A stretch of DNA of 62,988 nt, filler included, from Reclinomonas americana ATCC 50394 (taxonomy: Eukaryota), in the NCBI GenBank assembly GCA_048213135.1. It is 20 parts of 20 records of this genome, joined end to end, with 100 filler letters (N's around TTAATTAATTAA, not from the genome) between each part and the next. Parts side by side here need not be neighbours in the genome. Positions count along the whole stretch, not along the records: positions 13,778 to 20,464 come from AFZH01023249.1; positions 20,565 to 22,936 come from AFZH01023250.1; positions 23,037 to 24,108 come from AFZH01023251.1; positions 24,209 to 26,383 come from AFZH01023252.1; positions 26,484 to 29,142 come from AFZH01023253.1; positions 29,243 to 30,448 come from AFZH01023254.1; positions 30,549 to 35,370 come from AFZH01023255.1; 13 more parts are not named here. The stretch is one strand, 5' to 3'. The notes beneath the pieces were generated by a model that was given only the letters and a program-made list of their open reading frames with translations, was not told the origin of the DNA and did not search any database. Shown piece after piece: positions 3,480-34,220 of the stretch. The position numbers and the translations under genes were made by a program. Position 1 is the stretch's first letter. Each line of letters starts with the position of its first letter.

Positions 3480-3537
3480 GCAGGTAGGCCCTTGCCGCCC
3501 GCCCGCCGCATCGCGACGGTGGCGTCGGGAGGACCCC

Positions 3538-6736: not shown

Positions 6737-6753
6737 GTCGCAGCCTTTCTGGG

Positions 6754-7134: not shown

Positions 7135-7135
7135 G

Positions 7136-7698
7136 TCACGCTCCGATCACGTGGATGATCAGGACGCCGGCAAGGGCCGAGGCCGCGAGCGTCGGGATCA
7201 TGCCGACCTTGAAACGCAGCATCGCGATCATGGCGGCAGCCGATAGCACGGCGGCGCGCCAGTCGAGCGAGGACAGGACCGGTAGGTCGGGAGCCAAGCC
7301 GAGGAACTCGACCGAGCGGACCTGCCGGAAGACGACGTGGAGCGCGAACCAGAGCGCCAGGTTCATCACGACGCCAACGACCGCCGCGGTGATCGCCGTC
7401 AGCGCGGCCGAGAGGGCCCTGTTGCCGCGCAGCGCCTCGACGTAAGGCGCTCCAAGGAATATCCAGAAGAGGCACGGTGCGAATGTGACCCAGAGCGTCA
7501 GTAGCGCGCCGAGGCCCCCCGCCAGCAGCGGATCGAGACCGCCTGGCGCGCGGTAGGCGGCGAGGAAGCCGACGAACTGGAGGACGAGGATCAGCGGTCC
7601 CGGCGTGGTCTCGGCCAGGCCGAGCCCGTCCACCATCTCGCCCGCCTGAAGCCACCCGAAAGTCTCGACCGCGGCCTGCGCGACATAGGCCAGAACCG
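7136..7698 (-). CDS. chrA: Chromate efflux transporter, C-terminal part (5' truncated)
   Basis: [15 protein letters not shown]...[17 protein letters not shown] and [13 protein letters not shown] are CHR-family signatures. Confidence 0.92.
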
Positions 7699-14385: not shown

Positions 14386-14681
14386 CGTTGGACGGTTGGG
14401 GGGAACACACTGGATGGGTAGTCTCCGTCGCCGTCACTCCCAATGGCCAGCTCGTCGTGAGTGGCAGTCAGGATAAAACGATCCATGTGTGGTCCTCGCC
14501 GCGTGCGCTGGCGCGGCAAGAGCTTGCGGCCGCACAATCCGCCGTGCTGGCCGTCAACGAGCTGCTTGCCGAAGAAGATGACCATGACTTGATCCTCGTC
14601 GATGTCATGCTGCGATGCTTTGTGCTGGAGGATGCAGAGGTGATTGAAAGCCGTGCGCCTGGATGGTGCTGGACGGAGTGA
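14386..14681 (+). pseudogene. WD40 array copy B0: only the last blade and B-type tail remain
   Basis: HTGWVVSVAVTPNGQLVVSGSQDKTIHVWSSPRALARQELAAA...APGWCWTE*. Upstream is unrelated CT-rich DNA, with no MxTK exon or other blades. Confidence 0.7.
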
Positions 14682-15510
14682 GCTCAATGAATGTACGAAG
14701 ACCGATTGTTGTCACTGCGCAACTCTGTCATGTTGGCCACCACACTGCCTCAAATGTACACGTGCCCTGGTGCTTCCTTGTTGCATTGCCAAGTGCAGGC
14801 AGCCGGAAAGCAGATACAACACAGTGCTGTGCAGAGGGATTGCAACAAGAATATGCCGAGAACGATGGATGTGTGTGGGCGATTGAGATGAGACCATGGA
14901 ATGAACAGACACACGCGTGTTGCTCGGCATTGAGCGAGTCCTCGCTCTCCCACCCACACACACGCCTTGTGCTTGTGCCTTCATGTCGCCTTGTCATTCG
15001 AACGCGGCGTTGAAGCAGCGGCAAGTGTCATCATCGCCCGCCTCCCCTTCTCACGCGGGCACCGCGTGTCCATGGAGAGCGCGTCAGGCATCGATTCAGA
15101 CGGCCACCCTTCTCACCCCACGCCACGGGCAGGGAGTGCACTTGCCCTGTGCACTCCTTTCCCGCGCGTGCGTGTGTGCCCAGACAGCTGGTGTGGTACA
15201 CGCCACTCACGAACTGCGCTGCTTCTTCCCTCTCTTTCTGAATCGTGTGTTGTTGGCCTCCACCCGACTCACGTGCGTGACTCGGAGTGAGTTGACGCTC
15301 ATGGCGTGTCGAGTTAGAACTGGCATGCATGCATGCACGCACCCTCAATTGCGCAACATCTCGCTCACATTGCTGGTTGAGAATGGAGCACCACGACGGG
15401 GACGCAGAGAGACAGGGGGGCACTGAGACACAAACAGCACCGCGAGGCGCACGCGCGCGACAGAAAGAGGATGTTGATGTTCCGTCCGATGAATCAGAGT
15501 TGGTGCTTCA
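14682..15510. repeat. B-type intergenic spacer, repeated at 29605-30448
   Basis: Shared blocks include GCTCGGCATTGAG..CCCACACACACGCCTTGTGCTTGTGCC and GATGAATCAGAGTTGGTGCTTC. Confidence 0.85.
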
Positions 15511-15581
15511 CACACACTACACACACGCGCACACATACACACACGCACGCACGCACGCACGCACTCTCACCCACTCACGCA

Positions 15582-15662
<81 letters not shown>

Positions 15663-15686
15663 ACATACATACACAACGCACGGAGA

Positions 15687-16875
15687 ATGGCAACAAAGGT
15701 GTGAATGTTTGCGCACTTTGGGTGGTTGGTGTCTGTGCGTGCATTCGTGTGCTTGTGCATGTGTGTGGTTGCTGTTTGCGTTGCTGTGCATGTGCGTGTC
15801 TTTGAATGCCTCTCCACGTGCGTCTCACCGCGAATGATCGACGCAGATCATTCAGAGTCTCGCTTCTTCGGTGCGGTCAGTCGCTGTCACTCCCGACGGC
15901 AAGCACATTGTTGGTGGATGCATGGACAGTACCGTCCGAGTGTGGTCACTGGCGAGTGGCAAAGAGGTGCGACGACTGGATGGACACACTGGTTCGGTGT
16001 GGTCTGTCGCCGTCACCCCTGATGGCCAGCGCGTTGTCAGTGGGGGTCGAGACAACACTGTGCGGGTGTGGTCGCTGTCGAGTGGAGAAGAAATGCAACG
16101 GCTGGAGGGCCACACCGACACTGTGACGTCTGTCGCCGTCACCCCCAATGGCCAGCATGTCGTGAGTGGGAGTTGGGACTGCATAGTGCGGGTGTGGTCG
16201 CTGGCGAGTGGCAAGGAGGTGCGACGGATGGAAGGACACACCGACACGGTGCGGTCTGTCGCCGTCACCCCCGATAGTCAGCATATAGTGAGTGGTAGCC
16301 ACGATAACACAGTGCGGGTGTGGTTGCTGGCGAGCGGGGAAGAGGTGCGGCGGTTAGAGGGACATACTGGATGGGTGCAGTCTGTCGCTGTTACTCCAGA
16401 TGGTCAGCACATCGTAAGCGGGGGCGGGGACTGCACCGTGCGGGTGTGGTCGCTGGTGAGTGGAGACCTAGCGCGACAGTTGGAGGGACACACTGACTGG
16501 GTGACGTCGGTCGCTGTCACCTCCAATTGTCAGCATGTCGTGAGTGGGAGCAAGGACAGCACAGTGCGGATGTGGTTTCTGGTGAGTGGCGAGGAAGAGC
16601 GATGGTTGGAGGGACATGACGGATGGGTGTCGTCTGTGGCCGTCTCTCCCGATGGTCTGCACGTTGTGAGCGCGGGTGGCTACGACAGGACGGTGCGAGT
16701 GTGGTCCACGACGCGTGGCCTTGCTCGTTTCGAACTCGACGCTGCGCGCTCGGCCATGCGAGCTGTGCAGGAGATGCAGGAGGACGAGGAGGAAGTAGAT
16801 TCTAGATCCCTTCCCGAGCTGGTTCTGCGCTGTTTCATCGTCGAGGATGCCGAGGTCGTCCTTTTCCGGTGCTGA
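15687..16875 (+). CDS. WD40 array copy A1: intact 7-blade WD40 protein plus A-type tail, join(15687..15698,15847..16875), ~346 aa
   Basis: ATGGCAACAAAG|GTGTGA...CGCAG|ATC is a phase-0 intron in frame with ORF 15871..16875. Seven 42-aa GH...SVAVTPDG...SG..D.TVRVW repeats; tail ends LPELVLRCFIVEDAEVVLFRC*. Confidence 0.9.
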
Positions 16876-19059
16876 GTCGGTGAGTCGAAGGGAGGGAAGG
16901 TGGCTGCTGGTGACTGGGAGTTGTTTTTTCGTGTCTTGCGCGGGGGTGCGGGTGATCATGTGGGTGCGGGTGGTGAAGAGAGGACGACGGAGGGGGAGAG
17001 AGAGGTCGTTGATGGTGAATTGTTATCTGTGTTTGTTTTCCTGCCATGTGAATGATAGTCTGCGGTCGTGAAGCATTTCTCCCTCTGTATGGGTGTCTTT
17101 TTCTCACCTCAGTTTGTGTGTTACAAGCGAGATGAATCACCTGGGAGGCTGTTGTGTCTTTCTGTCTCTTTGTGGTGTCTGTTGTGCGTGCATCTTTCGT
17201 CGCCCACGTATGTGCCTCAGGAGAGCAAGTCACCGACGTCTGTTTTCTCGCGTCTTCTTCTGCGCACCACTTTGGCATCACTGCTCTGCTTCCCATTGTG
17301 CCTGTGCGCCGTGGGCATTCTCCTTCCGGCTCTGAAGAATGCCTGTCTTTCAGCTCTCTCTTTTCCTGCCTCCTGCAGAGTCACTCTCTTTCTCCGCCAT
17401 CTCCCTGCCTTTGTGCGCTCATCTGATTCCCCAGCCATCCACCCCTCGTTGCCGCACACGCTCAAGGCCGAGCTGCTGGTCCGCTCACCGTGTTCCGACT
17501 GCCATCGATTGCCAGTCTATCATGGTGAGCATGTCGATGCCGAAGCTTCGAAGGAGGTATTGTCCCTGCATGCTGACTCTGCTCTCTCTCTCTCTCTCCT
17601 TTGCAGGATGGATGTGTGAGCATCTCTTGGCTTGCTTCTTGACAAACGCGTGTTGGTATCAGGTGCTGATCGGTGTGTTTGTCAGTGAGACAGACCTGGT
17701 GTCTCTCGCCTTCCTCCATTCTTTGCTCACAGTGTACCGACATGCAGGCACCTTAGGGGCAGGTCCCCCTCGTTGTTCCGTAATGATTGCAGGCGTGATG
17801 TGCATTGCCCGTTGCCGGCTGTCACCTCACTCACTCGGCTCCCACTCGCATCCCACCATGCACTCAGCAGTTGTGTGGCCCTGTTCTTCGTGATCTCTCT
17901 CTCCTCCTTCCCTCTCACTCACTTCATCCATGCAGGCCGTGCACGACACGGAGTGTGTGACGAGGTGGTTCAATGGTGGCCTGGTCGGTGGATCGTTTTC
18001 AATCCCGGTTGGCAAGTCAGAGCGGATCGATGATGTGCGCTTCTTGGTTGCCGCCGTCTCTGTCGAGTGATGATGCTGGTGGTCATGGAAGACTGCAGAC
18101 GCGTGCTCGGCAATCTACTCATGGGTGGACACATGCGTGTTTACCGATGGGTGGCCTGGTCGTTGGATCGTTTTCAATCCCGGTTGGCAAGTCAGAGCGG
18201 ATCGATGATGTGCGCTTCTTGGTTGCCGCTGTCGCCGCCAAGTAATGATGGTGATGGCCGTGGGAGACTGCAGACGCGCGCGTGGCCTGGTGCGTACGTG
18301 TTCTGCATCTTCGTTGAGGAGTAAGTTGGTGAGACTTGGAGATTGACTGACTCAATTCTGCGTGTGATCTGAACACATGTGCACAGGCGTGCTGGCAAGT
18401 GACTCGTCACTGGCATGCGAAGACACGTGGTTCTGTGCCTCACAGTACATGCATGAGACGATTCACCGACTGACTGTGAGTGTGATTGAAGGCACTAGGC
18501 ATTGATTGTGATTTGGGTGAGAGGAGGCGAGCCTCACGACGCAGCTGCCTCGTCCATCGCTGTGCTGCTGTGCTGGTCGTTCCTCTCCTGTCTCTTGTGG
18601 CTCTCCTTCTTCGTCGTACCATCATCAACCTCGCTGTGGGCCGATCCAAGGAGGTGTGAGGTATCTATGACTCGGCACTCCATGGATTCTCTGGTGTGCC
18701 GTGGCATCAGCACACCAGGGCCACAGCTGCGTATCCAAACAGCCCAGCGCTCCAGTCCTCGTTGAGAGATGATGTAGGTCAGTCGAAAGAGAGTGTCGCT
18801 GGACAGCAGCGCGATGCAGTGGAGCGCCATCTTGTGTCGCCAGCATGTCCATTCTGCCAATTTCGCATCGACCTGTCCCATGTCGGTCTTCAAAAGCCCA
18901 CACGCATCAAAGAAGCCATACTGCTGTATGTTGTGTGGGGTGCTGATTGCAGCCTGGCGAGGGATGAACGATGTCTCAGAGCAAGGCGGGCGAAGAAAGG
19001 CGGGAAACGGTGACAATCCCGAGCGAGCAAATCGCACGTGCACACTACACACACGGAAA
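16876..19059. repeat. A-type intergenic spacer (~2.1 kb), repeated after every A gene
   Basis: Clearly homologous copies at 20201-22346, 23997-26008, 27149-29142 and 30769-~32800; the A1-to-A2 period is 3373 nt. Confidence 0.9.
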
Positions 19060-20200
19060 ATGACAACAAAGGGAATTTGTGCGCACTTTTGCGTGGTTGG
19101 TGTCTGTGCGTGCATTCGTGTGCTCGTGCGTGTGTGCGGTTGTTGTTTGTGTCGCTGTGCATGTGCGTCTCACCGCGAATGATCGACGCCGATCTTTCAG
19201 AGTCTCGCTTCTTCGGTGCGGTCCGTCGCCGTCACTCCCGATAGCAAGCACATTGTCGGTGGGTGCTTGGACAGCACCTTTCGAGTGTGGTCTTTGGCGA
19301 GTGGAGAAGAAGTGCGACGGCTGGGGGGACACGCTGGCGAGGTGTTGTCTGTCGCCGTCACTCCCGATGGCCTGCACATTGTGAGTGGGGGTCGAGACAA
19401 CACAGTACGTGTGTGGTCGCTTGCGAATGGGAAGGAAGTGCGACGATTAGACGGACACACTGGATGGGTATACTCCGTCGCCGTCACTGTCGATGGTCAG
19501 CACGTTGTGAGTGGGGATGGAGACAACACAGTGCAAGTGTGGTCTCTGGCAAGTGGGGAAGAGCTGCGATGGCTGGAGGGACACACCGACATGGTGCGGT
19601 CTGTCGCCGTCACTCCCGATTGTCAACGCATTGTCAGTGGTGGTGGAGACAACACCGTACGGGTATGGTTGCTGGCGAGTTGGAGGGCCGGGGCACTTTG
19701 ACATGGTGTGGTCTGTTGCTATGACTCTCGACGGTCGACGCATTGTGAGCGGCAGTTTCGACGAGACAGTGCGAGTGTGGTCATTGGCGAGTGGAGAAGA
19801 GATTCGCCGACTAGAGGGACACACTGACTGGGTGTCTTCTGTCGCCATCACTCCTGACAGTCAGCACATTGTTAGCGGGAGCGGAGACAGCACTGTGCGG
19901 GTGTGGTCTCTGGCGAGTGGCGAGGAAGTACGACGGTTGGTGGGACATGACGGATGGGTATCGTGTGTGGCCGTGTCTCCCGATGGTCAGCACATTGTAA
20001 GTGCGGGTGGCCAAGATAAGACCGTGAGAGTGTGGTCGACGCCGCGTGGCCTTGCTCGCCTCGAACTCGACGCCGCTCGCTCCGCCATGCAGGCTGTGCA
20101 GGAGATGCAGGAGGAAGAAGTAGATTCACGATGCCTTCCCGAGCTTGTTCTGCGCTGTTTCATCGTCGAGGATGCCGAGGTCGTTCTTTTCCGGTGCTGA
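19060..20200 (+). pseudogene. WD40 array copy A2: 7 blades, damaged splice donor and frameshift at ~19680-19690
   Basis: AAG|GGAATT replaces AAG|GTGTGAATT. The blade 4-5 linker is 10 nt instead of 24 nt, which splits ORFs 19216..19701 and 19511..20200. Confidence 0.8.
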
Positions 20201-22346
20201 GTTGGTGAGTCGAAGGGAGGGAGAGCGGTGGCTGCTGGTGATTGTGAGTTGTTTTTCGTGTCTTGCGGGGGAGAGTGAGTGGGGGAAGAGAGGATGACGG
20301 AGGAGGAGTGAGAGGTCGTTGTTGATGATGAATTGTTCTCCCGTGCTTGCTGCCCTTTCATGTGAATGGGAGTGTGCGGGTGTGAAGCATGTCTCCCTCT
20401 GTTGGCGTGTCTCTTTCTCACCTCAATTTGTGTGTGTGCGATGAATCACTTGGAGTCTGTGATTNNNNNNNNNNNNNNNNNNNNNNNNNNNNNNNNNNNN
20501 NNNNNNNNTTAATTAATTAANNNNNNNNNNNNNNNNNNNNNNNNNNNNNNNNNNNNNNNNNNNNGCTTTTTCGTCTCGTCGTAAAGTCTGTTGTGCGTGC
20601 ATCTTTCGTCGCTGATCATGATATACGTGCCTCATGAGAGCAAGTCACCGTTGTCTGTTTCCCTCGCGTCTTGTTTTTCGCACCTCCTTGGCACCGCCAT
20701 ACTCTGCTTCCCATTGGCGCGTGCGCCGTGGACATTCTCCCTCCGGCTCTGAAGAATGCCTGTCTTTCAGCTCCCTTTTTCCTGCCTCCTGCAGAGTCTA
20801 TCTCTTTCTCCGCCATCTCCCTGCCTTTGTGCGCTCATCTGATTCCCCAGTCGTCCACCCCATCCTTCCCGCACACGCTCGAGGCCGAGCATGCTTCTTG
20901 CTCATGATGCACCGACTGCCATCCTGCCAGTCCATCATGGTGAGCTTCCCGATGCCGAAGTGTGTGAGGTGGCATACCTGCATACTGACTCTGCTCCTTC
21001 TCTCCCTTGTAGGATGATTGTGTGAGCATCCCTCGCCTTGCCCCTTGCCCAAACGCGTGTTGGTATCAGGTGCTGATCGGTGTGTTCGTCAGTGAGACAG
21101 TGCAGATGTCTCTCCTCTTCCACCATTCTTTTGCTCACATCGCACACACATGCAGACACCATGGATGTGTTCCTCGTCATTGGCCGTGACGATGACAGAC
21201 GTGCTGTGCATCGCCCATTCCCGGCTGTCACCCCACTCACTCGGCTCCCCATCCGCATCCCATCATGCACGATGCAGGTGGACTTGTTCGGCGTGATCTC
21301 TCTTTCCTCCCACCCTCCCACTCACCTCAATTATGCAGGCCGTGCACGTCATGGAGAGCGTGGCGTGGGTGGGTGTACACATGCGTGTCGTGATGTGCGA
21401 TGGATGGCCTGGTCGGTGGATCGTTTTCAATCTCAACTGGCAAGTCGGAGCGGATCGATGATGTGCGCTCCTTGGTTGCTGCTGTCACTGCCGAGTGATG
21501 CTGGTGGTGGCGCCGGCCACGGGAGACTGCAGACTCGTGCCAGGCTAGCAACACATGGTGCCTGCGTGTTCTGTATCTGCACTGAGGAGCAAGTTGGCGA
21601 GACTTGGAGACAGGCTGACTCCGCCTGTATGTGATCTGAACACAGGCGTGCTGGCAAGTGACTGGCATGCGACGACACGTGGTTCTGTGCCTCACAGTAC
21701 ATGCGCGAGACGATTCACCGGCCGACTGTGAGTGTGATTGAAGGCACGCACGAGGCATTGATTGTGACTTGGGTGAGAGGGAGGCGAGCCTCACGACGCA
21801 GCTGCCTCTTCAATCGCTGTGCACGTGCTACTGTACTGGTCGCTCCTCTCCTGTTCCCTGTGACTCTCCTTCTTCGTCGTACCATCATGACGTGCACCTC
21901 GTCAGCTTCGCTGTGAGCCGATCCAAGGAGGCTTGAGGTTTCGAAGACTCGGTGCTCAATGGATTCTCGAGTGTGCTGTGCCGTGGCATCAGCACACCAG
22001 GGCCACAACTGCGTATCCAAGCAGCACGACATGCCAGTCCTCGTTGACAGAGAATGCTGGCCGGTCGAAAGAGAGTGTCGCTGGACAGCAGCGCGATGCA
22101 GTGGAGCGCCACCTCGTCACACCACCACCCTGCTTGTCGTCGTCCATTCTGCCGATTTCCCATCGACGAGTTTCATGTCGGTCTTCGGATTCCCACACGC
22201 ATGAACAAAGCCACATTGCTCTCATACTGCTGTATGTTGTGTGGGGTACTGGCTGCAGCCTGGCGAGGGATGCGGGACGTCTCAGAGCAAGGCGGGAAAC
22301 GGTGACAATCCCGAGCGAGTAAATCACACACTCACACGATACGAGA

Positions 22347-23996
22347 ATGGCAACAAAGGTGTGAATTTGTGCGCACTTTTGCGTGGTTGGTGTCTGTGCG
22401 TGCATTCGTGTGCTCGTGCGTGTGTGCGGTTGTTGTTTGTGTGTTTGTGCATGTGCGTCTCACCGCGTGTGGTCGGCACAGATCATTCGTAATCTCGCTT
22501 CGGTGCGGTCCGTCACCGTCACTCCCGACGGCAAGCACATTGTCGGTGGGTGCATGGACAACACGATTCGAATGTGGTCACTCGCGAGTGGCGAAGAAGT
22601 GCGACGGCTGGAAGGACACACTGAATGGGTGCTTTGTGTCGCCGTCACCCCTGATGGTAAGCTTATTATCAGTGGCCATGGGGGTCAAGACAACACAGTT
22701 CGTGTGCACGTGTGGTCGCTGGCGAGTGGTGACGAAGAGCGACGGCTGGTGGGACACACTGGATGGGTGTTTTCTGTCACCGTCACCCCAGATGGTCAGC
22801 ACGTTGTCAGCGGCAGCTTCGACAAGACAGTGCGAGTGTGGTCGTTGATGAGTGGGAAGGAGGTGCGACGGCTGCAGGGACACACTGCAAGGGTGTTGTC
22901 TGTCGCTGTCACCCCTGATGGTAAGCACGTTGTGAGNNNNNNNNNNNNNNNNNNNNNNNNNNNNNNNNNNNNNNNNNNNNTTAATTAATTAANNNNNNNN
23001 NNNNNNNNNNNNNNNNNNNNNNNNNNNNNNNNNNNNTGGGGGTGGAGACAACACAGTGCGGGTATGGTTGCTGGCGAGTGGGGAAGAGGTCCGACGGTTG
23101 GAGGGACACACTGACTGGGTGATTTCAGTCGCTGTTACTCCAGACGGTCAGCACATCGTGAGTGGCAGTAGGGACAAAACGGTGAGAGTGTGGTCACTGA
23201 CGAGTGGAGAAGAAGTGCGACGGTTAGAGGGACACACTCGCCCTGTGTGGTCTGTGGCCGTCACTTCGGATGGTCAGCATGTCGTGAGTGGGAGTGGAGA
23301 CAGCACTGTGAGGGTGTGGTCTCTGGAGGGTGGAGAGGAAGTGCGACGGTTTGAGGGTCATGACGGATGGGTGTCGTCTGTTGCCGTCTCTCTCGATGGT
23401 CAGCACATTGTGAGTGGTAGCCACGATAACATAGTGCGGGTATGGTTGCTGGCGAGTGGGAGGAGGTGCGACGCGTACGGTTGGCGGGACACACTGGATG
23501 GGTGTACTCTGTTACTGTTACTCCAGATGGTCAGCACATCGTAAGCGGGAGCGGGGACAACACAGTGCGAGTGCGGTCGCTGATGAGTGGAGACCAAGTG
23601 CGACGGTTGGAGGGACACACTGGTGCGGTGTGGTCTGTCGCCATCACTCCCGACGGCCATCATGTCGTGAGTGGGAGCGAGGACAAGACAGTGCGGGTAT
23701 GGTCTCTGGTAAGTGGCGAGGAAGTACGACAGTTGGAGCGACACACTGGATATGTGTCGTCTGTGGCCGTCTCTCCCGATAGTCAGCGCATTGTGAGTGC
23801 GGGTGGCTACGACAATACCGTGCGAGTGTGGTCTACACCGCGTGGCCTTGCTCGTCTCGAACTCGACGCCGCGCGCTTGGCCATGCGAGCTGTGCAGGAG
23901 ATGCAGGAGGAAGAAGTAGATTCACGATGCCTTCCCGAGCTGGTTCTGCGCTGCTTCATTGTCGAGGATGCCGAGGTCATCCTTTTCCGGTGCTGA
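22347..23996 (+). pseudogene. WD40 array copy A3: spans an assembly spacer, probably 10 blades, 1-nt frameshift at ~23460
   Basis: MATK exon at 22347. The ends abut across the spacer (GTG AG|T GGG GGT GGA GAC = VSGGGD). The frame change lies in a G-run (GAGTGGGAGGAG) and could be a homopolymer error. Confidence 0.65.
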
Positions 23997-26008
23997 GTTG
24001 GTGAGTCGGAGGGAGGGAGAGCGGTGGCTGCTGGTGATTGTGAGTTGTTTTGCGTGTCTTGTGAGGGAGAGTGGGTGATCATGTGGGTGCGGGTGGGGGA
24101 AGAGAGGANNNNNNNNNNNNNNNNNNNNNNNNNNNNNNNNNNNNNNNNNNNNTTAATTAATTAANNNNNNNNNNNNNNNNNNNNNNNNNNNNNNNNNNNN
24201 NNNNNNNNCGCACCTCCTTGGCACCTCTATACTCTGCTTCCCATTGTGCACGTGCGCCGTGGGCAGTCTCCTTTCGTCTCTGCAGGATGCCTGTCTTTCA
24301 GCTCTCTTTTTCCTGCCTCCTGCAGAGTCTATCTCTTTCTCCGCCATCTCTCTGCCTTTGTGCGCTCATCTGATTCCCCAGCCATCCGCCCCTCCTTGCC
24401 GCACACGCTCGAGGTCGAGCATTCTGGTCTGCTCATTATGCACCGACTGCCATAGATTGCCAGTCCATCATGGTGAGCATGTCGATGCCGAAGTGTGTGG
24501 GATGGCATGACTGTATGCTGACTCTCCTTCTCTCTCCCTTGCAGGACGGTTGTGTGAGCGTCCCTTGGCTTGCCTCTTGCCCAACCGTGTGTTGATATCA
24601 GCTGCTGATCGGTGTGTTTGTCACGTGAGACAGAGCAGATTTCTCTCCCCGTCCTCCATTCTTTGCTCACAGCACACCGGCATGCAGACACCATGGAAAG
24701 CATGTCGTGGCGAGGACAGGCGTGATGTGCATCGCCCGTTGCCGGCTGTCACCTCACTCACTCGGCTCCCCACTCGCATCCCACCAATGCACGAAGCAGG
24801 TGTGTGGCCATGTTCGTCGTGATCTCTCTTCTCTTCCTTCCCTCCACTCACTTCATACCTGCAGGTCGTGCACGTCATGGAGAACGTGGCTGGGTGGAAG
24901 TACACATGTGTGTCGTGATGTGCGATGGGTGTCATGGTCGGTGGATCGTTTTCAATCCCGGCTGGCAAGTCGGAGCGGATCGATGATGTGCGCACCTTGG
25001 CTGCCGCCGTCTCTGTCGAGTGATGACGCTGGTGGCCACGGGGGACTGCAGACGCGTGTTCGGCAATCTACTCATGGGTGGACACATGCGTGTCGTGTTT
25101 CCCGATGGGTGGCCTGGTCGGTGGATCGTTCTCGATCCCGGTTGGCAAGTCAGAGCGGATCGATGATGTGCGCTTCTTGGTTGCCGCTGTCGCCGCCAAG
25201 TAATGATGGTGATGGCCATGGGAGACTGCAGACGCGCGCGTGGCCTGGTGCGTACGTGTTCTACATCTGCGTTGAGGAGTAAGTTGGCGGGACTTGGAGA
25301 TTGACTAACTCAATTCTGTGTGACAGGCGTGCTGGCAAGTGACTGGCGTGCGAAGACACGTGGTTCCGTGCCACACAGTGCATGCATGAGACAATGCACC
25401 GACCGACTGTGAGTGTGATTGAAGGCGCGAGGCATTGATTGTGACTTGGGTGAGAGGAGGCGAACAACACAGCTGCCTCGTCCATCGCTGTGCACGTGCT
25501 ACTGTACTGGGCGCTCCTCTCCTGTTCCCTGTGACTCCCCTTCTTCGTCGTACCATCATGAACCTCGCTGTGGACCGATCCAAGGAGGTGTGAGGTGTCG
25601 CGGACCCGCTGCTCATTGGAATCTCGAGTGTGCCGTGGCATCAGCACACCAGGGCCACAACTGCGTATCCAAGCAGCACGACATGCCAGTCCTCGTTGAG
25701 AGATAATGCAGGTCAGTCGAAAGAGAGTGTCGCTTGACGTGCACGGTGCAGTGGAGCGCCACCTTGTGTCACCACCACCTTGCATGTCCGTTCTGTCGAT
25801 TTCTCATCGACCAGTCCCGTGTCGGTCTTCGAAAGCTCACGCGCATCAACGAAGCCACGTCGCTCACTCACTACCGCATGCTGTGTGGGGTGCTGGCTGC
25901 AGCCTGGCGAGGGATGCGGGACTTCTCGGGGCAAGGCGGGAGAAGAAAGGCGGGAAACGGTGACAATCCTGCGAGCAAATCACACACACACTAACACACA
26001 CACGGAGA

Positions 26009-27148
26009 ATGACAACAAAGGTGTGAATGTGTGCGCACTTTCGCGCGGTTGGTGTCTGTGCGTGCATTCGTGTGCTCGTGCATCGTGTGCGGCCGTGGTT
26101 GCTGTTTGTGTGTTTGTGTGTGCGCGTCTCACCGTGAGTGATCGACACAGATCATTCAGAGTCTCGCGACAGTGGTGCGGTCAGTCGCTGTCACTCCCGA
26201 CGGCAAGCACATTGTTGGTGGGTGCTTGGACAACTCCGTTCGTGTGTGGTCTCTGGCGAGCGGAGAAGAAGTGCACGTGCGACGACTGGAGAGAGACACT
26301 GGTTCGGTGTGGTCTGTCGCCGTCACCCCCAATGGCCAGCAGATAGTGAGTGGGTGTGGAGACTGTACCGTGCGTGTGTGGTCNNNNNNNNNNNNNNNNN
26401 NNNNNNNNNNNNNNNNNNNNNNNNNNNTTAATTAATTAANNNNNNNNNNNNNNNNNNNNNNNNNNNNNNNNNNNNNNNNNNNNCGAGCGGGGAGGAGGTG
26501 CGACGGCTGGAAGGACACGCCGATAAGGTGTTGTCTGTCGCTGTCACCCCTGATAGTGAGCACATTGTTAGTGGGAGTCGGGACAACACCATGCGGGTAT
26601 GGTTGCTGGCGAGCGGGGAAGAAGTGCGACGGTTGGAGAAACACACTGGATGGGTGATGTCAGTCGCTGTTACTCCAGATGGTCAACACGTCGTGAGTGG
26701 CAGTAGGGACAACACGGTGAGAGTGTGGTCGCTGGTGAGTGGGAAGGTGGTGCGATGGCTGAATGGACACACTACATGGGTGTCGTCTGTCGTCGTCACT
26801 CCCGATAGCCAGCACATCATTAGCGGGAGTGAGGACAGCACCGTGCGGATGTGGTCTCTGGCAAGTGGCGAGGAAGAGCGACGGTTGGAGGGACACACTG
26901 GACGGGTGTCGTGTGTGACCGTGTCTCCCGATGGTCAGCACATTGTGAGTGCGGGTGGGCAAGACAAGACAATACGAGTGTGGCCCACGCCGCGCGGCCT
27001 TGCTCGCGTCGAGCTCGATGACGCGCGCTTGGCCATGCAGGCTGTGCAGGAGATGCTGGAGGAAGAAGTAGATTCACGATGCCTTCCCGAGCTGGTTCTG
27101 CGCTGTTTCATCGTCGAGGATGCCGAGGTCGTCCTTTTCCGGTGCTGA
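26009..27148 (+). CDS. WD40 array copy A4: MTTK exon, blades 1-2, gap, blades 4-7, A-type tail
   Basis: Exon 26009..26020, intron ending 26150. ORFs 26172.. and 26498..27148 flank the spacer; blade 3 is presumably in the gap. Confidence 0.75.
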
Positions 27149-29242: not shown

Positions 29243-29604
29243 AGCATGTTGTTAGTGGGAGTCAAGACTACACAGTGCGAGTGTGGTCGCTGGCGAGTGG
29301 GCAAGAATTGCGACGGTTCGAGGGACACGCGTGGGGGGTGCAATCTGTCGCTGTTTCTCCCAGCGGGCAGCACATCGTGAGTGGCAGTCAGGATAAAACG
29401 ATCCGAGTGTGGTCCACGCCGCGTGGGCTGGCGGGGCAAGAGCTTGCGGCCGCACGATCAGCCGTGCTGGCCGTCAACGAGCTGCTTGCCGAAGAAGACG
29501 GCGACTGTGACTGGATTCTCGTCGATGTCGTGCTGCGGTGTTTCGTGCTGGAGGATGCAGAGGTGATTGAACGCCGTGCGCCTGGATGGTGCTGGACGGA
29601 GTGA
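29243..29604 (+). CDS. WD40 array copy B1, 3' part (B-type tail ...APGWCWTE*)
   Basis: ORF 29275..29604; followed by the same downstream spacer as B0. Confidence 0.8.
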
Positions 29605-30548
29605 CGTGAATGAATATGCGAAGACCGATTGCTGTAACTGCGTGCAACTCTCTCATGTTGACTGTCACATCGCTTATAGCACGCAGGTGCTTCCTTGCCG
29701 CCCGACCAAACGGACGAAGCTGGGAAGCAGACACAGCACAGTGCAGTGCAGTAGGAGTGCAAGAAGAGCATGCCGGGTGCGAGGTGTGTGTGGGTGGTTG
29801 AGATTGATGAGACCAAGGAATGAATAGACACGCGTGCTGCTCGGCATTGAGTGAGTCCTCCCTCATCAACCCACACACACGCCTTGTGCTTGTGCCCCCA
29901 TGTCGCTTTGGAGATGCCAGCCTGTCGCTGTTGACGCAGCAGCCAGTGGCAATCGTTGCCCGCCTCCCCTTCTCACGCGGGCACCGCGTGTCCATGGAGA
30001 GCGCGTCAAGTATCGATTCAGACGGCCACCATTCTCACCACATACGCCACGGAGAAGGAGTGCACTTGCCTTGTGCACTCGTTTCCTGCACATTGTGTGC
30101 CCCGACAACTAGTGTGACGCACCCCACTCACGAGTTGCGCTGCTTCGTTGCTCTCTTTCTGATCATGAGTCATGTGTTCCTGCGTCTCCACCCGACTCAC
30201 ATGCGTGGCCTGGAGGGAGCTGATGCTCATAGCGCGTCGGGTTGAACAGGCTCGTCATGCATGCATGCACATTCAAGGGCGCAACATCTCACTCACATCG
30301 CAGTTGGAGAATGGAGCGCCACGACGAGGATGCGGAGAGACAGGGGTCAGTGAGACACAGACAGCGCCGCGCGGCACAGGAACGCACGAGAGAGGAAGAG
30401 GAATGTTGATGTTCCGTCGGATGAATCAGAGTTGGTGCTTCTATTCTANNNNNNNNNNNNNNNNNNNNNNNNNNNNNNNNNNNNNNNNNNNNTTAATTAA
30501 TTAANNNNNNNNNNNNNNNNNNNNNNNNNNNNNNNNNNNNNNNNNNNN

Positions 30549-30768
30549 GGATGGTCTCCACATTGCGAGTGCAGGTGGCCAAGACAAGACAATACGAGTG
30601 TGGTCCGCGCCGCGTGGCCTTGCTCGCTTTGAACTCGACGCCGCGCGCTCGGCCATGCGAGCTGTGCAGGAGATGCAGGAGGAAGGAGTAGATTCACGAT
30701 GCCTTCCCGAGCTGGTTCTGCGCTGTTTCATCGTCGAGGATGCCGAGGTCGTCCTTTTTCGGTGCTGA
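30549..30768 (+). CDS. WD40 array copy A5, 3' end only
   Basis: DGLHIASAGGQDKTIRVWSAPRGLARFELDAARSAMRAV...VLFRC*. Confidence 0.8.
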
Positions 30769-32799
30769 GAAGGTGAGCCGAAGGGAGGGAAGGTGGCTGC
30801 TGGTGACTGGGAGTTGTTTTTTCGTGTCTTGCGGGGGAGAGTGGGTGATCATGCGGGATGCAGGTGGGGGAAGAGAGGATGGCAGAGGAAAGGGAGAGAT
30901 CGTTGTTGATGGTGATGAATTCTTCTCGCGTGCTTATTGCCCTGTCATGTGAATGAGAGTGGGTGGTCGTGAAGCAAGTCTCTCTCTGTGTGCGTGCCTC
31001 TTTCTCACCTCCATTTTGTGTGCAAGCTCGATGAATCACTTGGGAGTCTGTAATTTCTTTTCCCCTCGTTGTGATGTCTGTTGTGCGTACCCCGCGAGTC
31101 GTGCATGTATATATGTGCCTCACGAGAGCGAGTCGCCGTTGTCTGTTTTCTTCGCGTCTTGTTTGCACACCTCCTTGGCACCTCTATACTCTGCTTCCCA
31201 TTGGCGCGCGCGCCGTGGACATTCTCCCTCCGGCTCTGAAGAATACATGTCTTTCAGCTCCCTCTTTTCTGTGTCTTGTAGAGTCTCTCTCTCTTTCTCC
31301 ACCATCTCTCTCCTTTGTGCGCTCATCTGCTTCCCCAGCCATCCACCCCTCTTTTCCGCACTCGCTCAAGGCCGAGCATGTTTCCCTACTCATGGTGCAC
31401 CGACTGCCATCGATTGCCAGTCCATCATGGTGAGCTTCTCGATGCCGAAGTGTGTGAGATGGCCTGACTGCATGCTGATTCTTCTCTCCCTCTCCTTTGC
31501 AGGATGGATGTGTGTACAGAAGCATCCCTTGGCTTGCCTCTTGATTAACCACTTGTTGGCATCAGGTGCTGATCGGTGTGTTCGTCACGTGAGACAGAGC
31601 AGATTTCTCTCCCCGTCCTCCATTCTTCGCTCACATCGCACCGACATGCAGGCACCTTAGGGGCAGGTCCCCCTCGTTGTTCCGTAATGATTGCAGGCGT
31701 GCTGTGCATCGCCCGCTGCCGGCTGTCACCTCACTCAGTCGGCTCCACACTCGCATCCCGCCGTGCACGATGCAGGTGCGTGGCCCTGTTTTTCGTGATC
31801 TCTCTTTTCTCCTTCCCTCCCACTCACGTCATCCATGCAGGCCGTGCATGCCATGGAGAACGTGGCTGGGTGGGTGTACACCTGCGTGCCGTGATGTGCG
31901 ATGGGTGGCCTGGTTGGTGGATCGTTTCAAACTCCGGCTGGCAAGTCGGAGCGGATCAATGATGTGCGCACCTTGGCTGATGCTGTCTCTGTCGAGTGAT
32001 GATGGTGGTGGCCATGGAAGACTGCTGGCATGTGCAAGGCCAGCAACTCATGGTGCGTGCGTGTTCCGCGCCTGCGTTGACGTTCAAGTTGGCGAGAGTT
32101 GGAGATTGACTGACTCAATTCTGCGTGTGATATGAACACAGGCGTGCTGGCAAGTGATTGGCCACTGGCATGCATGTAACATGGCGGCGCGCGGTTCCAT
32201 GCCTCACAGTATCTGCATGAGACGATTTACCGACCGACTGTGAGTGTGATTGAAAGCATGAGACATTGACTGTGACTGGGTGAGAGGGGGCGATCTTCCA
32301 CAGCTGTGCTGCTGTAGTGGTCGCTGCTCTCCTGTCTCTTGTGGCTCTTTTTCCTCAATGTCTCACCTCAACCTCGCTGTGGGCCGATCCAAGGAATCGA
32401 TGACTCGGTGCACGTGCTCCATGGATTCTCATGCGTGCTGTGCTGTACAGCTGTGGCTTCAGCACAACAGGGCCAGAGCTGCGTATCCAGGCAGCCCGAC
32501 ATTCCAGTCCTCGTTGGCAGAGAATGCAGGCCAGTCGAAATGAAATGTCGCTGGACAGCAGCACTGAGCAATGGAGAGCCGCACCTTGTGTCGCCGGCAT
32601 GTCCATTTTGCCGATTTCGCATGCGCAACAACGAGTCCCATGTCGGTCTTCGAAAGCCCACACGCATCAACGAAGCCACATTGCTCACACTACCGTCTGT
32701 TGTGTGGGGTACTGGCTGCAGCCTGGCGAAGGATGTAAGACGCCTCAGAGCAAGGCGGAAGAAGAAAGGCGGGAACCGGTGACAATCCGGAGCGAGCAA

Positions 32800-32857
<58 letters not shown>

Positions 32858-32984
32858 CGCGAGAACAGACTCTTCGTTTACCACCGAGAGTACCAACCAG
32901 GTGGCTTGCTCCCCGACCGGAGGAACTCAACAGAAGCGAACCAACAAGAGAGGGCACAAGTGTCATTTATCCTTCCAGCTTCCA

Positions 32985-33039
32985 ATGACAACCAAGGTGC
33001 GCTCACACACACGTGTGTGTGGGAGAGAATCGTGTGTAT

Positions 33040-33075
<36 letters not shown>

Positions 33076-34189
33076 CTTTCTGTCTCTCTCTCTCTCTCTC
33101 TCTTTATGCCCATCTCAGTGTGCATGGTCGACACAGATCTTGCGGGGACACACTGAAGCTGTGCTTTCCATCGCCATCACCCCCGATGGCCTGCACGTGG
33201 TGAGTGGCAGTGATGATTGCACGGTGCGCGTGTGGTCTGTCGCCAGCGGGGAAGAACTGCGACAGTTGAAGGGACACACGGGAGTGGTGACCTCTGTGGC
33301 CGTCACCGTCAACGGTCAACACATTGTGAGTGGCGGCGAAGACATGACTGTGCGAGTGTGGTTGCTGGCGAGTGGAGAACAAGTGCAACGGCTGGAGAGA
33401 ACCCTATACTGGATGTTGTCCGTCGCCGTCACTCCTGATGATGGGCAGTACATTGTGAGCACGAGCTATGACAGCTCTCTGCGCACGTGGTCCCTCGCGA
33501 GTGGAGAAGAAGTGCGGCAGTTTGTTGGACACTTTCATTGGGTGTCGTCCGTGGTCGTCACTCCCAGCGGTGAGTACGTGGTGAGTGGGAGTTGGGATAG
33601 AACAGTGCGAGTGTGGTCGCTGGCGAGTGGTGAAGAAGTGCGACGTCTGGAGGGGCACAGTGACTTTGTATTGTCTGTCAGCACTACTGCCGACGGTCGG
33701 CGCGTGGTGAGTGGCAGTGACGACAAGACAGTGCGCGTTTGGTCACTGGAGAATGGCTGCGAGGAACGACTGTTTGAAGGACACCACGGGGCAGTGAACG
33801 CTGTCGCCGTCACTCGTGACAGTCAGTACGTAGTGAGCGGGAGTTATGACTGCACTGTGCGCGTGTGGTCTATGGTGAGTGGGGATGAAGTGCGACGGCT
33901 GGAGGGGCACACTGGTCCGGTGTCTTCAGTTGTCGTCACACCGGATGGTCAGCACGCCATCAGTGGGAGCGAGGACAAGACGATTCGAGTGTGGTCCACG
34001 CCGCGCGGGCTGGCCCGGCAAGAGCTTGTGGCCGCTCGATCGGCCGAGCAGACCATCAACGAGATGATTGCGGAGGATAGTGGTGACCGCGACTGGGTCC
34101 TTGTGGACGTCGTGCTGCGGTGTTTTGTGTTGGAGGATGCGGAGGTGATTGAACGCCGTGCGCCTGAGTGGTATTCGGCCATGCAATGA
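32985..34189 (+). CDS. WD40 array copy B2: intact 7-blade protein, join(32985..32996,33119..34189); most divergent copy
   Basis: ATGACAACCAAG|GTGCGC...CTCAG|TGTGCATGG; seven repeats; tail ends VLRCFVLEDAEVIERRAPEWYSAMQ*. Confidence 0.9.
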
Positions 34190-34220
34190 ATAGCAGGTCA
34201 TTCGTTCTGCTGATCTCACT

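What the first reader, a model, noticed from the sequence alone, without database searches (positions are those of the whole stretch)
14386..34189. Tandem array of at least 8 stand-alone 7-blade WD40 genes with hypervariable binding faces: candidate protist recognition repertoire
Seen: same-strand copies in the order B0-A1-A2-A3-A4-B1-A5-B2 at about 3.3-kb period. The 42-aa blades are near-identical (SVAVTPDG.H.VSG, D.TVRVWSL.SG.E.RRLEGH) except at a few recurrent positions. The two residues before V and the one after it read GS/W, DT/T, DT/R, GW/Q, GE/L, GW/Y, DM/W, EW/L, AR/L, RP/W, DK/L, TW/S, WG/Q, HW/S, DF/L and GA/N. The residues flanking the conserved D read RDN, WDC, HDN, KDS, YDR, FDE, QDK, EDK and DDC. 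Known: these correspond to WD40 top-face ligand hotspots, the class of sites that diversify in Podospora HET-D/HET-E (HNWD) non-self receptors. Inference: here diversity is spread over many small genes with no NACHT/NB-ARC or effector domain, i.e. a birth-and-death library of soluble binders.
Basis: partly seen in the sequence, partly recalled or inferred. Interest (0 to 1): 0.85.

Follow-up and report, generated by a model that had tools for sequence, protein, structure and literature searches.

The report
Tandem family of stand-alone WD40 genes
A stretch of a protist-like genome carries a head-to-tail cluster of at least eight diverged copies, several of them broken, of a small gene for a seven-bladed WD40 binding protein with a unique helical tail; its ligand-contact positions differ from blade to blade, so it may be a set of differently tuned binders, but nothing yet shows an immune role.

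Summary
The repeat is real, but the window is not one molecule. It is 20 contigs chained by N44-TTAATTAATTAA-N44 spacers, and three of them are bacterial. Seven consecutive eukaryotic contigs (13778-35370), all in one orientation, hold eight WD40 tails in the order B0-A1-A2-A3-A4-B1-A5-B2. Only A1 and B2 are complete and open. A2 and A3 carry frame-breaking indels, B0 is a one-blade stub, and A4, B1 and A5 are cut by contig ends.

Each gene appears to have a 4-codon first exon (MATK/MTTK), a ~140-150-nt intron, and one exon for seven blades plus a 53-62-aa helical tail. I found no NACHT or other domain.

Blades are 66% identical in protein and 72% in DNA. There is no concerted evolution. Four positions per blade (42, 2, 18, 20, i.e. 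R1-2, R1, D-1, D+1) are hypervariable. They have the same 2-16-2 spacing as the selected sites of Podospora HNWD. Their dN/dS is about 1 (0.98-1.33) against 0.19-0.31 elsewhere, so positive selection is not shown.

The tail is conserved (dN/dS 0.15-0.38) and known from only two other proteins, one a Reclinomonas americana EST.

Verdict: a new variant of repetitive WD40 binders. An immune repertoire is possible but untested.

The parts
14386..14681 (+). B0: 5'-truncated stub, made of part of a d-a loop, the last blade and a B-type tail with its stop codon. CT-rich non-coding sequence lies upstream.
   Evidence: Homology to B1 starts at 14391 (14391-15509 vs 29312-30441, 80.7%).
15687..15698 (+). 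A1 candidate exon 1 (ATG GCA ACA AAG = MATK), followed by a GT donor.
   Evidence: Pattern AATGRCAACMAAGG gives 5 matches against 0 expected. Alignment, coordinates.
15699..15846 (+). A1 candidate intron, 148 nt, GTGTGA...GACGCAG.
   Evidence: The size and ends resemble the introns of the neighbouring kinase-like gene. Inferred; there is no RNA evidence.
15847..16875 (+). A1 exon 2: seven WD40 blades plus an A-type tail. The frame is open and complete. The predicted product is 346 aa.
   Evidence: AlphaFold pLDDT 93.8.
16876..19059 (.). A-to-A spacer, ~2.2 kb. It is repeated with the gene at 81-87% identity. No coding signal was found.
19060..20200 (+). A2: pseudogene. The donor is lost (AAG|gga), the acceptor is changed (ccg), and a ~20-nt deletion breaks the frame near 19681-19705. 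Seven blades plus the tail are still recognisable.
22347..22936 (+). A3 5' part: mini-exon 22347-22358, then exon 2 from 22482 with blades 1 to 3.3. It runs to the contig end.
23037..23996 (+). A3 3' part: 6.65 blades plus an A-type tail. The frame is broken near 23455-23501 (-1/+6 nt). It joins the previous contig exactly in frame (AG+T = Ser), which would give 10 blades.
26009..26383 (+). A4 5' part: mini-exon 26009-26020, then exon 2 from 26151 with blades 1 to 1.6. It runs to the contig end.
26484..27148 (+). A4 3' part: 4.4 blades plus an A-type tail, with an open frame. Five nt (modulo 126) are missing at the join.
29243..29604 (+). B1: the last 1.7 blades plus a B-type tail. The 5' end is cut by the contig start.
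30549..30768 (+). A5: the end of the last blade plus an A-type tail. The 5' end is cut by the contig start.
32985..32996 (+). B2 candidate exon 1 (ATG ACA ACC AAG = MTTK), followed by GT. The candidate intron is 32997-33136.
33137..34189 (+). B2 exon 2: seven blades plus a B-type tail. The frame is open and complete. The predicted product is 354 aa.
   Evidence: AlphaFold pLDDT 90.8.

Best explanation
This is a real head-to-tail cluster of at least eight diverged paralogues, in two old subfamilies A and B, of a small two-exon eukaryotic gene.

**The product (346-354 aa).** It consists of MxTK, a single seven-blade WD40 propeller of the 'repetitive' type, and a 53-62-aa helical-hairpin tail that occurs almost nowhere else.

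**How the family evolves.** It evolves by birth and death. Whole ~3.3-kb units were duplicated and then diverged by 13-23%, and several copies died. The blade scaffold and the tail are held by purifying selection. Four top-face positions per blade change at about the neutral rate but are enriched in Trp, Asn and aromatic residues. Internal blades have been reshuffled between positions.

**Most likely function (inferred).** The live members are soluble protein-binding modules whose top faces differ from gene to gene. The shared tail couples them to a common partner or assembly. Which ligands they bind is unknown.

**Shown and inferred.** Shown here: the anatomy, the selection pattern, the fold and the rarity of the tail. 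Inferred: the splice model, the binding role and the role of the tail.
For: **Anatomy**
- Blades, tails and whole-unit repeats are documented.
- Copies cannot be a collapse artefact. Spacers are 81-87% identical in 10 of 10 pairs, and dS in the tail region among A copies is 0.18-0.38.

**Order of the contigs**
- All 7 contigs are in one orientation.
- The 20464|20565 join is seamless relative to the A1 unit.
- The 22936|23037 join is seamless and in frame, and the 26383|26484 join lacks 5 nt.

**Gene model**
- The mini-exon motif occurs 5 times against 0 expected by chance.
- The acceptor cag|ATC is kept in 4 of 5 copies. The one copy that lost both donor and acceptor (A2) also has a frameshift.
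- The neighbouring gene has 60-130-nt GT-AG introns.

**Fold**
- Pfam WD40 gives 7 stretches at E 2.3e-78.
- AlphaFold gives pLDDT 93.8 and 90.8, seven blades, and a tail of helices at 289-312/322-341 (A1) and 289-313/319-340 (B2).
- The best Foldseek matches are repetitive propellers: 5yzv (41% identity, rmsd 0.9), 7bie and 2ymu.

**Selection**
- The rest of the blade has dN/dS 0.19-0.31, against 0.98-1.33 at the four sites. Fisher odds ratio 5.1, p 2e-7.
- The last blade plus tail has dN/dS 0.15-0.38 among A copies.
- Among the 100 residues at the four sites, W is 17 against 3.1 expected, N is 9 against 1.8, and G is 5 against 14.8. There are 24 distinct combinations in 25 blades.
- Internal blades taken in order are on average 0.77 identical (24 values). 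Spacers are 0.81-0.87 and the last blade is 0.83-0.90.

**Relatives**
- The tail-only search found 1 hit among 1.84 billion representative proteins.
- The tail profile found P0123 (E 1.7e-20) and P0124 (E 1.9e-17).
- P0124 is an EST-derived Reclinomonas americana protein, 64% identical to the C-terminal part of A1. So at least one family member is transcribed.
Against: - There is no RNA evidence for these genes. No RNA run was listed, and that blank cannot be used as evidence either way.
- Only 2 of 8 copies are demonstrably intact.
- A dN/dS of about 1 at the variable sites is also what unconstrained surface positions would give.
- In the blades where orthology is kept, the R1 position is the same in all A copies: blade 1 reads R, R, R, R and blade 7 reads S, S, S, S. 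The paralogues therefore share part of the face.
- Blade numbers at two joins (10 and 6) may be assembly errors.
- The role of the tail is a guess. Pfam, PDB sequences and the ESM Atlas gave nothing.
- Small upstream exons would not have been seen by an ORF scan with a 100-aa minimum.
Confidence: 0.6

Rival explanations
1. One reading: the array is an innate-immunity-like non-self recognition repertoire. It would be a library of soluble sensors kept diverse by positive selection, analogous to the HET-D/HET-E WD domains.
For: - The four variable positions match those of the Podospora NWD repeats, with the same pairing around invariant residues.
- There are 24 distinct four-residue combinations in 25 blades, and the sites are enriched in Trp and aromatic residues.
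- Internal blades are more diverged than the neutral spacer.
- The family is organised as a tandem, birth-and-death array.
Against: - dN/dS at these sites is not above 1: 0.98 in 12 independent pairs with p 0.65, and 1.14 and 1.33 in the pooled pair sets.
- No effector or NTPase domain was found in the array.
- There is no DNA-level homogenisation of repeats. Blades are 72% identical in DNA and pS is 0.53.
- The same variable-hotspot pattern is general to repetitive WD40 proteins.
- No population or challenge data exist.
Confidence: 0.15
2. One ordinary WD40 scaffold gene was amplified in tandem and most copies are decaying. On this reading the variable positions are merely unconstrained, and no repertoire function exists.
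For: - 2 copies have frameshifts, 1 is a stub, and only 2 of 8 are intact.
- dN/dS is about 1 at the variable sites.
- Spacers and genes were duplicated together.
Against: - Purifying selection is still visible between copies in the scaffold (0.19-0.31) and in the tail (0.15-0.38), at dS 0.2-0.4.
- The composition at the variable sites is far from neutral expectation.
- Two subfamilies with saturated dS (1.3-2.6) are both kept with intact members.
- A third lineage is transcribed in R. americana.
Confidence: 0.2
3. The genes are not stand-alone. Unseen short upstream exons, or exons hidden in assembly gaps, would add an N-terminal domain such as an NTPase, TIR or kinase, as in many of the closest metagenomic WD40 relatives.
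For: - Exon 2 has no in-frame ATG before blade 1 in the A copies.
- Many database relatives of 560-750 aa carry N-terminal regions.
- The genome is intron-rich.
Against: - The conserved ATG mini-exon with a GT donor is present in 5 of 5 visible 5' ends.
- In A1 the sequence upstream of that ATG is a (CA)n microsatellite.
- 0 of 60 spacer ORFs match Pfam.
- Spacer conservation is flat, with no exon-like peaks.
- P0123 is a 394-aa stand-alone form.
- The tail profile, searched among proteins of 115-2000 aa, found no longer fused form (weak evidence by the tool's own caveat).
Confidence: 0.08
4. The array is an artefact of assembly or of the way the window was built: unrelated contigs placed side by side, or one gene mis-assembled into many.
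For: - The window is a chain of contigs that includes bacterial ones.
- Contigs break inside the repeats.
- The only public run found holds just two small pieces of the stretch.
Against: - Three genes lie in tandem inside one 6.7-kb contig, and two lie inside a 4.8-kb contig.
- The eight tails are all different.
- Every spacer piece is homologous to the A1-A2 spacer.
- All 7 contigs share one orientation, and several joins are seamless or nearly so.
Confidence: 0.03

Closest known systems
WD-repeat sensor domains of the Podospora anserina NWD/HNWD NLR-like proteins (HET-D, HET-E, HET-R)
   Same: - Blades are unusually alike.
- Four hypervariable positions lie in two pairs, each pair flanking an invariant residue, with 2-16-2 spacing. 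They sit on the top face.
- The family contains pseudogenes and variable repeat numbers (passages of PMC1805685 and PMC2873952; this window).
   Different: - There is no HET or NACHT domain here.
- The repeats are not homogenised. They are 72% identical in DNA, against 'up to 100%' in Podospora, and within-gene identity equals between-gene identity.
- Positive selection is not shown.
- Diversity here is spread over tandem genes.
- There is an extra helical tail.
[quoted passage not shown] 2017; solved examples 5yzv from Thermomonospora and 2ymu)
   Same: - The blade consensus is almost the same (SVAVTPDG..VVSGS.D.TVR.W.L..G.EVRR..GH).
- Identity is 52-59% to metagenome proteins P0027, P0015, P0020 and P0047, and 39-42% to 5yzv and 2ymu, with rmsd 0.9-1.5.
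- Hotspot sites are variable on a conserved scaffold.
   Different: - This is a eukaryotic gene with an intron and microsatellite-rich spacers.
- Internal identity is 0.68 (A1, A2) and 0.55 (B2), below that paper's 0.7 cut-off.
- dS between blades is about 0.9, so the repeats are not young.
- The tail is unique.
P0123 (unnamed 394-aa protein from a Logan contig) and P0124 (EukProt EP00694, Reclinomonas americana, EST EC795383.1.p2)
   Same: Both carry the same tail after a last WD40 blade (LARQEL...A...LRCF..E.A.V) and belong to the same family by profile, at E 1.7e-20 and 1.9e-17.
   Different: - P0123 has degenerate, non-repetitive blades.
- P0124 is a 116-aa fragment of a third lineage, 64% identical to A1 and 54% to B2.
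- Neither has any described function.
Stand-alone seven-blade WD40 scaffolds such as WDR5
   Same: It is a single seven-blade propeller without catalytic domains. TM-score is about 0.79-0.80.
   Different: - Sequence identity is 29-30%.
- WDR5 blades are not repetitive.
- WDR5 is a single-copy housekeeping gene (the last point is recalled, not tested).

Membership tests
WD40 repeat beta-propeller (Pfam PF00400) | Several consecutive WD40 repeats matched above the curated threshold. | tested here: met
   A1 gives 7 stretches, E 2.3e-78, 255.8 bits against a cut-off of 27. B2 gives 6 stretches, E 1.9e-71.
WD40 repeat beta-propeller (Pfam PF00400) | A closed propeller of four-stranded blades. | tested here: met
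   The AlphaFold models have 27 strands of three or more residues. A short N-terminal strand completes blade 7. pLDDT is 93.8 and 90.8. Foldseek E is 1e-33 to the seven-blade propeller 5yzv.
WD40 repeat beta-propeller (Pfam PF00400) | The Asp-His-Ser/Thr-Trp tetrad residues. | tested here: met
   D19 is present in 25 of 25 blades, H39 in 24, W25 in 24 and S15 in 22. The tetrad is as named in Wu et al. 2012 (passages). The assignment of S15 to the tetrad is from my own knowledge.
'Highly repetitive' WD40 (Hu et al. 2017) | Internal repeat identity of 0.7 or more (0.4 to 0.7 is 'moderately repetitive'). | tested here: not met
   A1 0.68, A2 0.68, B2 0.55. This falls in the moderately repetitive band, just under the cut-off for the A type. 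My identity measure may differ from theirs.
'Highly repetitive' WD40 (Hu et al. 2017) | A conserved scaffold with diverse predicted hotspot sites. | tested here: met
   Entropy is 2.4-3.2 bits at positions 2, 18, 20 and 42, and at most 1.9 bits at every other position.
Fungal NWD/HNWD NLR-like proteins | A central NACHT NTPase domain. | tested here: not met
   There is no NACHT hit in A1 or B2 or in the 60 spacer ORFs of 100 aa or more. Of the 82 ORFs listed, I left out the 22 that overlap the WD40 exons. Short exons were not tested.
Fungal NWD/HNWD NLR-like proteins | An N-terminal HET cell-death domain (HNWD only). | tested here: not met
   Same searches, no hit.
Fungal NWD/HNWD NLR-like proteins | Concerted evolution: repeats nearly identical in DNA both within and between loci. 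| tested here: not met
   Mean DNA identity is 0.717 (range 0.56-0.86). Within-gene identity is 0.716 and between-gene identity 0.717. pS between blades is 0.53.
Fungal NWD/HNWD NLR-like proteins | Four codons under strong positive selection on the interaction face. | tested here: inconclusive
   The same four positions are hypervariable, but dN/dS is 0.98-1.33 and not significantly above 1. Site-wise likelihood or ancestral-state methods could not be run.
STAND / NLR-type receptors in general | An NTPase (NACHT or NB-ARC) fused to the repeat sensor. | tested here: not met
   The tail-profile search among proteins of 115-2000 aa found only a 394-aa and a 116-aa protein.
F-box/WD40 or SOCS-box/WD40 ubiquitin-ligase adaptors | A recognisable F-box or SOCS-box next to the propeller. 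| tested here: not met
   Pfam on the 9 tails at E up to 10 gave only chance-level TPR_TNPO3 (0.032) and RRM_1 (0.13) hits. The 'LPELVLRCF' likeness to an F-box start is not kept in the B type.
Gcp1-3, the Pex7-like WD40 proteins of jakobids and other organisms with a mitochondrial T2SS | Sequence membership in the Gcp1-3 families. | tested here: inconclusive
   The motifs VLRCF and TVRVWS are absent from the 6 held supplementary files of PMC8134430. No alignment was made. The C-termini FRC, WTE and AMQ are not SKL-like (the PTS1 rule is recalled).

The most novel reading that the evidence does not exclude
A bacterivorous flagellate of the jakobid kind keeps a tandem, shuffling library of free WD40 sensor propellers. 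These would dock through their private helical tail onto a shared signalling or effector partner encoded elsewhere. That would be an NLR-like recognition system split into separate parts, possibly built on a propeller captured from bacteria. It would be the first innate-recognition repertoire described in Discoba.
Probability: 0.12. Interest if true: 0.8.

Novelty: new variant of a known kind. Interest (0 to 1): 0.47.

Why it matters
Repetitive WD40 propellers with variable top-face hotspots are known mainly as the sensor ends of large STAND/NLR-like proteins in fungi and multicellular bacteria. In this window the same kind of propeller stands alone. It is multiplied as whole genes in tandem, in a deep-branching protist lineage, and it is tied to a conserved tail that I found in only two other proteins in the libraries searched.

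If the live copies bind different ligands and share one tail partner, the system would show a different route to a recognition repertoire: many small genes instead of many repeats in one receptor. It would also provide a tractable set of natural binder scaffolds.

If most copies are simply decaying duplicates, it is an ordinary gene cluster. The difference can be settled directly with long reads, RNA-seq and pull-downs.

Tried and rejected
**Genome, reads and earlier notes**
- No whole genome is held for this window, and the genome search gave no answer. Genome-wide paralogue counts were therefore impossible.
- Sequencing runs: one DNA run (X1) was listed and no RNA holder was listed. When laid, X1 gave only two contigs, at 14054-14274 (9 differences) and 14476-14865 (identical). 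This adds nothing on expression or on the array.
- Earlier notes of this scan: three look-ups returned nothing.

**Searches for relatives of the tail**
- A word search with the B2 tail among proteins of 234-748 aa found 61 candidates, none significant.
- The JGI metagenome scan matched 176 pattern stretches, none of them a relative.
- The prokaryote genome scan gave one 18-residue match in Actinomyces urinae (L001), which I take as chance.
- PDB sequences gave only E 1.6-2.4 to light-harvesting proteins.
- Pfam at E up to 10 gave nothing meaningful.
- The ESM Atlas gave no usable hit.

**Other negative searches**
- Rfam and tRNA scans of the eukaryotic contigs found nothing.
- The full-length B2 search returned thousands of generic WD40 proteins. 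The best was 59% identical, and the 120 listed cover 55-82% of the query. This search did not help with taxonomy.

**Tail-tail pairing**
- The complex prediction for two copies of the tail gave no support and no verdict. It is not evidence either way.

**Site-wise selection**
- The tree-based test with ancestral states was not available on the script machine. I dropped it and used independent pairs instead.

**Literature**
- I found no description of this family with the terms (search listings only).
- The Gcp1-3 WD40 proteins of PMC8134430 were considered and not supported.

**Ideas rejected**
- A kinetoplastid origin, because the neighbouring gene has cis-introns.
- A prenylation or PTS1 signal at the C-terminus, which ends in FRC, WTE or AMQ.
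- An F-box reading of the tail.

Full report
**1. What the window is.** The 62,988 bases contain 38 runs of exactly 44 N. These come in 19 pairs, each pair around the word TTAATTAATTAA. The window is therefore a chain of 20 contigs of 1.1-7.7 kb, not one molecule.

The first two contigs and the last one are bacterial. Their GC is 0.65-0.68, and they match Pfam Metallophos, adh_short, CHASE3+HisKA_2, DUF6815, IclR and AA_permease. The 17 contigs between them (7799-59650) are eukaryotic. They have CT-rich tracts, (CA)n microsatellites, ankyrin repeats, and a kinase-like gene with five GT-AG introns of about 60-130 nt within 1.1 kb. No whole genome is held for this window.

**2. The observation.** An HMM built from six A1 blades finds 43 blade matches. 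All are on the + strand, between 14418 and 34000, and there are none elsewhere. Eight tails follow a last blade at 14610, 16825, 20150, 23946, 27098, 29533, 30718 and 34115, in the order B0-A1-A2-A3-A4-B1-A5-B2.

Self-BLAST shows that the whole unit is repeated at 77-88% identity, spacers included. A five-way spacer alignment is evenly conserved, with no exon-like peaks.

The copies span seven contigs. Physical linkage is certain only inside 13778-20464 (B0 stub, A1, A2) and 30549-35370 (A5 tail, B2). The given order is nevertheless credible:
- All seven contigs have one orientation.
- The 20464|20565 join is seamless relative to the A1 unit.
- The 22936|23037 join completes a Ser codon exactly (AG+T).
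- The 26383|26484 join lacks 5 nt.
- The B1-to-A5 flank repeats the B0-to-A1 flank.

**3. State of the copies.**
- A1 (15847-16875) and B2 (33137-34189) are complete and open.
- A2 has a ~20-nt deletion that breaks the frame, and A3 has a -1/+6 change. Neither looks like a homopolymer error.
- A2 has also lost the candidate donor and acceptor.
- B0 is a stub of one blade plus the tail. Its homology to B1 starts at 14391, next to CT-rich sequence.
- A4, B1 and A5 are cut by contig ends.
- As joined, A3 would have 10 blades and A4 would have 6. This may be real repeat-number variation or an assembly error.

**4. Gene model.** In the A copies a stop codon lies just upstream of exon 2, and there is no in-frame ATG before blade 1. 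About 150-185 nt upstream of blade 1, the word AATG-R-CAAC-M-AAGG occurs in all 5 visible 5' ends, against 0 expected by chance. It reads ATG GCA/ACA ACA/ACC AAG. A GT follows in 4 of 5 copies, and the exception is the dead copy A2. The acceptor ...cag|ATC is kept in the same 4.

This gives MATK or MTTK, then a ~140-150-nt intron, then one 1.03-1.05-kb exon. The products would be 346 aa (A1) and 354 aa (B2). The model is inferred, because I have no RNA data.

None of 60 spacer ORFs of 100 aa or more matches Pfam. Those 60 came from the 82 ORFs listed; I left out the 22 that overlap the WD40 exons.

B2 also has an in-frame ATG in a (GCT)n/(CT)n tract. I take that as part of the intron.

**5. 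The protein.** Pfam finds only WD40-type families. AlphaFold models of A1 and B2 have pLDDT 93.8 and 90.8. Both show seven four-stranded blades followed by a helical hairpin, at 289-312 plus 322-341 in A1 and at 289-313 plus 319-340 in B2, with pLDDT about 70-86.

The closest solved folds are repetitive propellers: 5yzv (41% identity, rmsd 0.9), the designed WRAP-T proteins, and 2ymu. WDR5 follows at 29-30% identity.

The closest sequences are metagenome proteins with almost the same blade consensus, at 52-59% identity. They carry no taxon label.

**6. Variation and selection.** I used 25 ungapped 42-codon blades. I dropped the last blades, blades with indels or frameshifts, and partial blades at contig ends.

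- *Entropy.* It peaks at positions 2, 18, 42 and 20. V1 and D19 between them are invariant.
- *Location.* By DSSP these sites lie in the b-c turn and at the d-a loop and the start of strand a. That is the top face, at R1-2, R1 and D-1 of Wu et al. 2012 (passages).
- *Match to Podospora.* The spacing is the same as for codons 7, 9, 25 and 27 of the NWD repeats, which also flank conserved residues (passages).
- *Nei-Gojobori counts.* The table gives dN/dS (pN/pS for the independent pairs).

| Pair set | Four sites | Rest of blade |
|---|---|---|
| All 300 pairs | 1.33 | 0.19 |
| 22 pairs of 78% or more DNA identity | 1.14 | 0.22 |
| 12 independent pairs | 0.98 | 0.31 |

In the independent pairs the binomial p for an excess of non-synonymous changes is 0.65. 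The contrast between the two site classes has odds ratio 5.1, p 2e-7. The sites are therefore freed from the constraint on the scaffold, but positive selection is not shown.

- *Composition.* The four sites are not compositionally neutral. W is 17 of 100 against 3.1 expected, N is 9 against 1.8, and G is 5 against 14.8. There are 24 of 25 distinct four-residue combinations.
- *No homogenisation.* Blades are 71.7% identical in DNA, with within-gene identity 0.716 and between-gene identity 0.717. Synonymous sites between blades are near saturation, with pS 0.53. The likeness of the blades in protein (66.5%) is therefore held by selection and not by recent homogenisation. This is a clear difference from Podospora.
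- *Blade order.* Terminal blades keep orthology: blade 1 is 0.83-0.85 identical among A1, A2 and A3, and blade 7 is 0.83-0.90. Internal blades taken in order average 0.77, which is below the non-coding spacer at 0.81-0.87. Some match best out of order, for example the third blade of A3 with blade 6 of A1 and A2. This points to reshuffling of internal blades.
- *Tail.* The last blade plus tail is under purifying selection among A copies (dN/dS 0.15-0.38, dS 0.18-0.38). A and B are old lineages, with dS of 1.3 or more.

**7. The tail and relatives.** A tail-only phmmer search of 1.84 billion representative proteins found one protein, P0123 (E 3.3e-5). It is 394 aa, with degenerate WD40 blades and the same tail, and it comes from an unnamed Logan contig.

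A profile of nine tails found P0123 (E 1.7e-20) and P0124 (E 1.9e-17). The source names P0124 as EukProt EP00694 Reclinomonas americana, EST EC795383.1.p2. It is 64% identical to the C-terminal part of A1 and 54% to B2, so it represents a third lineage.

A family member is therefore transcribed in a jakobid. The window's eukaryote may be a jakobid or a relative, but this is not shown.

Pfam, PDB sequences, the ESM Atlas, the JGI metagenomes and the prokaryote genomes gave nothing more for the tail.

**8. Reading.** The best-supported account is a birth-and-death tandem family of stand-alone, moderately repetitive WD40 binders with diversified top faces and a shared, constrained helical tail. 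Whether the diversity is selected (a recognition repertoire) or merely tolerated cannot be decided from this window.

The intron-free 1-kb exon sits in an intron-rich genome, and it is 52-59% identical to unlabelled metagenome proteins. This suggests a bacterial origin of the propeller, but I did not test that.

**9. Literature.** I read passages only of PMC1805685, PMC2873952, PMC3419727, PMC5587647 and PMC8134430, and I searched the 6 held supplementary files of the last one. Everything else was seen only as search listings. I found no description of this family in those searches. PDF supplements of the Podospora papers, which hold the repeat alignments, were not seen. The match of positions to those papers therefore rests on the numbering and spacing given in the main text.

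Noticed in passing
window 1-7698 and 59751-62988: Three of the 20 chained contigs are bacterial, with GC 0.65-0.68. They encode a metallophosphoesterase, a short-chain dehydrogenase, a CHASE3/HWE histidine kinase, an IclR regulator and an amino-acid permease. The source assembly is therefore a mixed eukaryote-plus-bacteria data set.
   Followed up: partly
window 10576-11466 and 11655-12509 (also 13778-14385): Strongly CT-rich satellites lie just left of the array, with periods of 353 nt and about 94-118 nt. The truncated copy B0 abuts sequence of this kind, so this is probably the left edge of the array.
   Followed up: partly
window ~49500-51300 and ~54000-57000: Two paralogous genes encode ankyrin repeats, a long Gln/Glu-rich coiled coil and a kinase-like end with a G-x-G-x-x-G motif. 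The stretches 49690-50222 and 54182-54724 are 70% identical. The genes are interrupted by many short GT-AG introns. Pfam saw only the ankyrin part, and I read the kinase motif by eye.
   Followed up: partly
window 24902-25236 (and 17961-18324): A 180-nt tandem duplication lies inside the A-to-A spacer. It is present in more than one unit.
   Followed up: no
window 15847-16875 compared with 55900-57000: The WD40 exon runs 1,029 nt without an intron, whereas the kinase-like gene nearby has five introns in 1.1 kb. The nearest blade relatives are unlabelled metagenome proteins at 52-59% identity, some with signal peptides or non-eukaryotic-looking N-termini. A bacterial origin of the propeller is possible but untested.
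   Followed up: no
window 22936|23037 and 26383|26484: Two contig joins fall inside blades and are in phase, with 0 and 5 nt missing. They would give a 10-blade gene and a 6-blade gene next to 7-blade neighbours. This is either unequal exchange between blades or a mis-assembly of repeats.
   Followed up: partly
window 32783-33136: Upstream of B2 exon 2 the frame stays open through (GCT)n and (CT)n tracts from an in-frame ATG. This would give an Ala/Leu-rich N-terminus that resembles a signal peptide. The A copies have a stop codon at this place, so I treat the stretch as intron.
   Followed up: no
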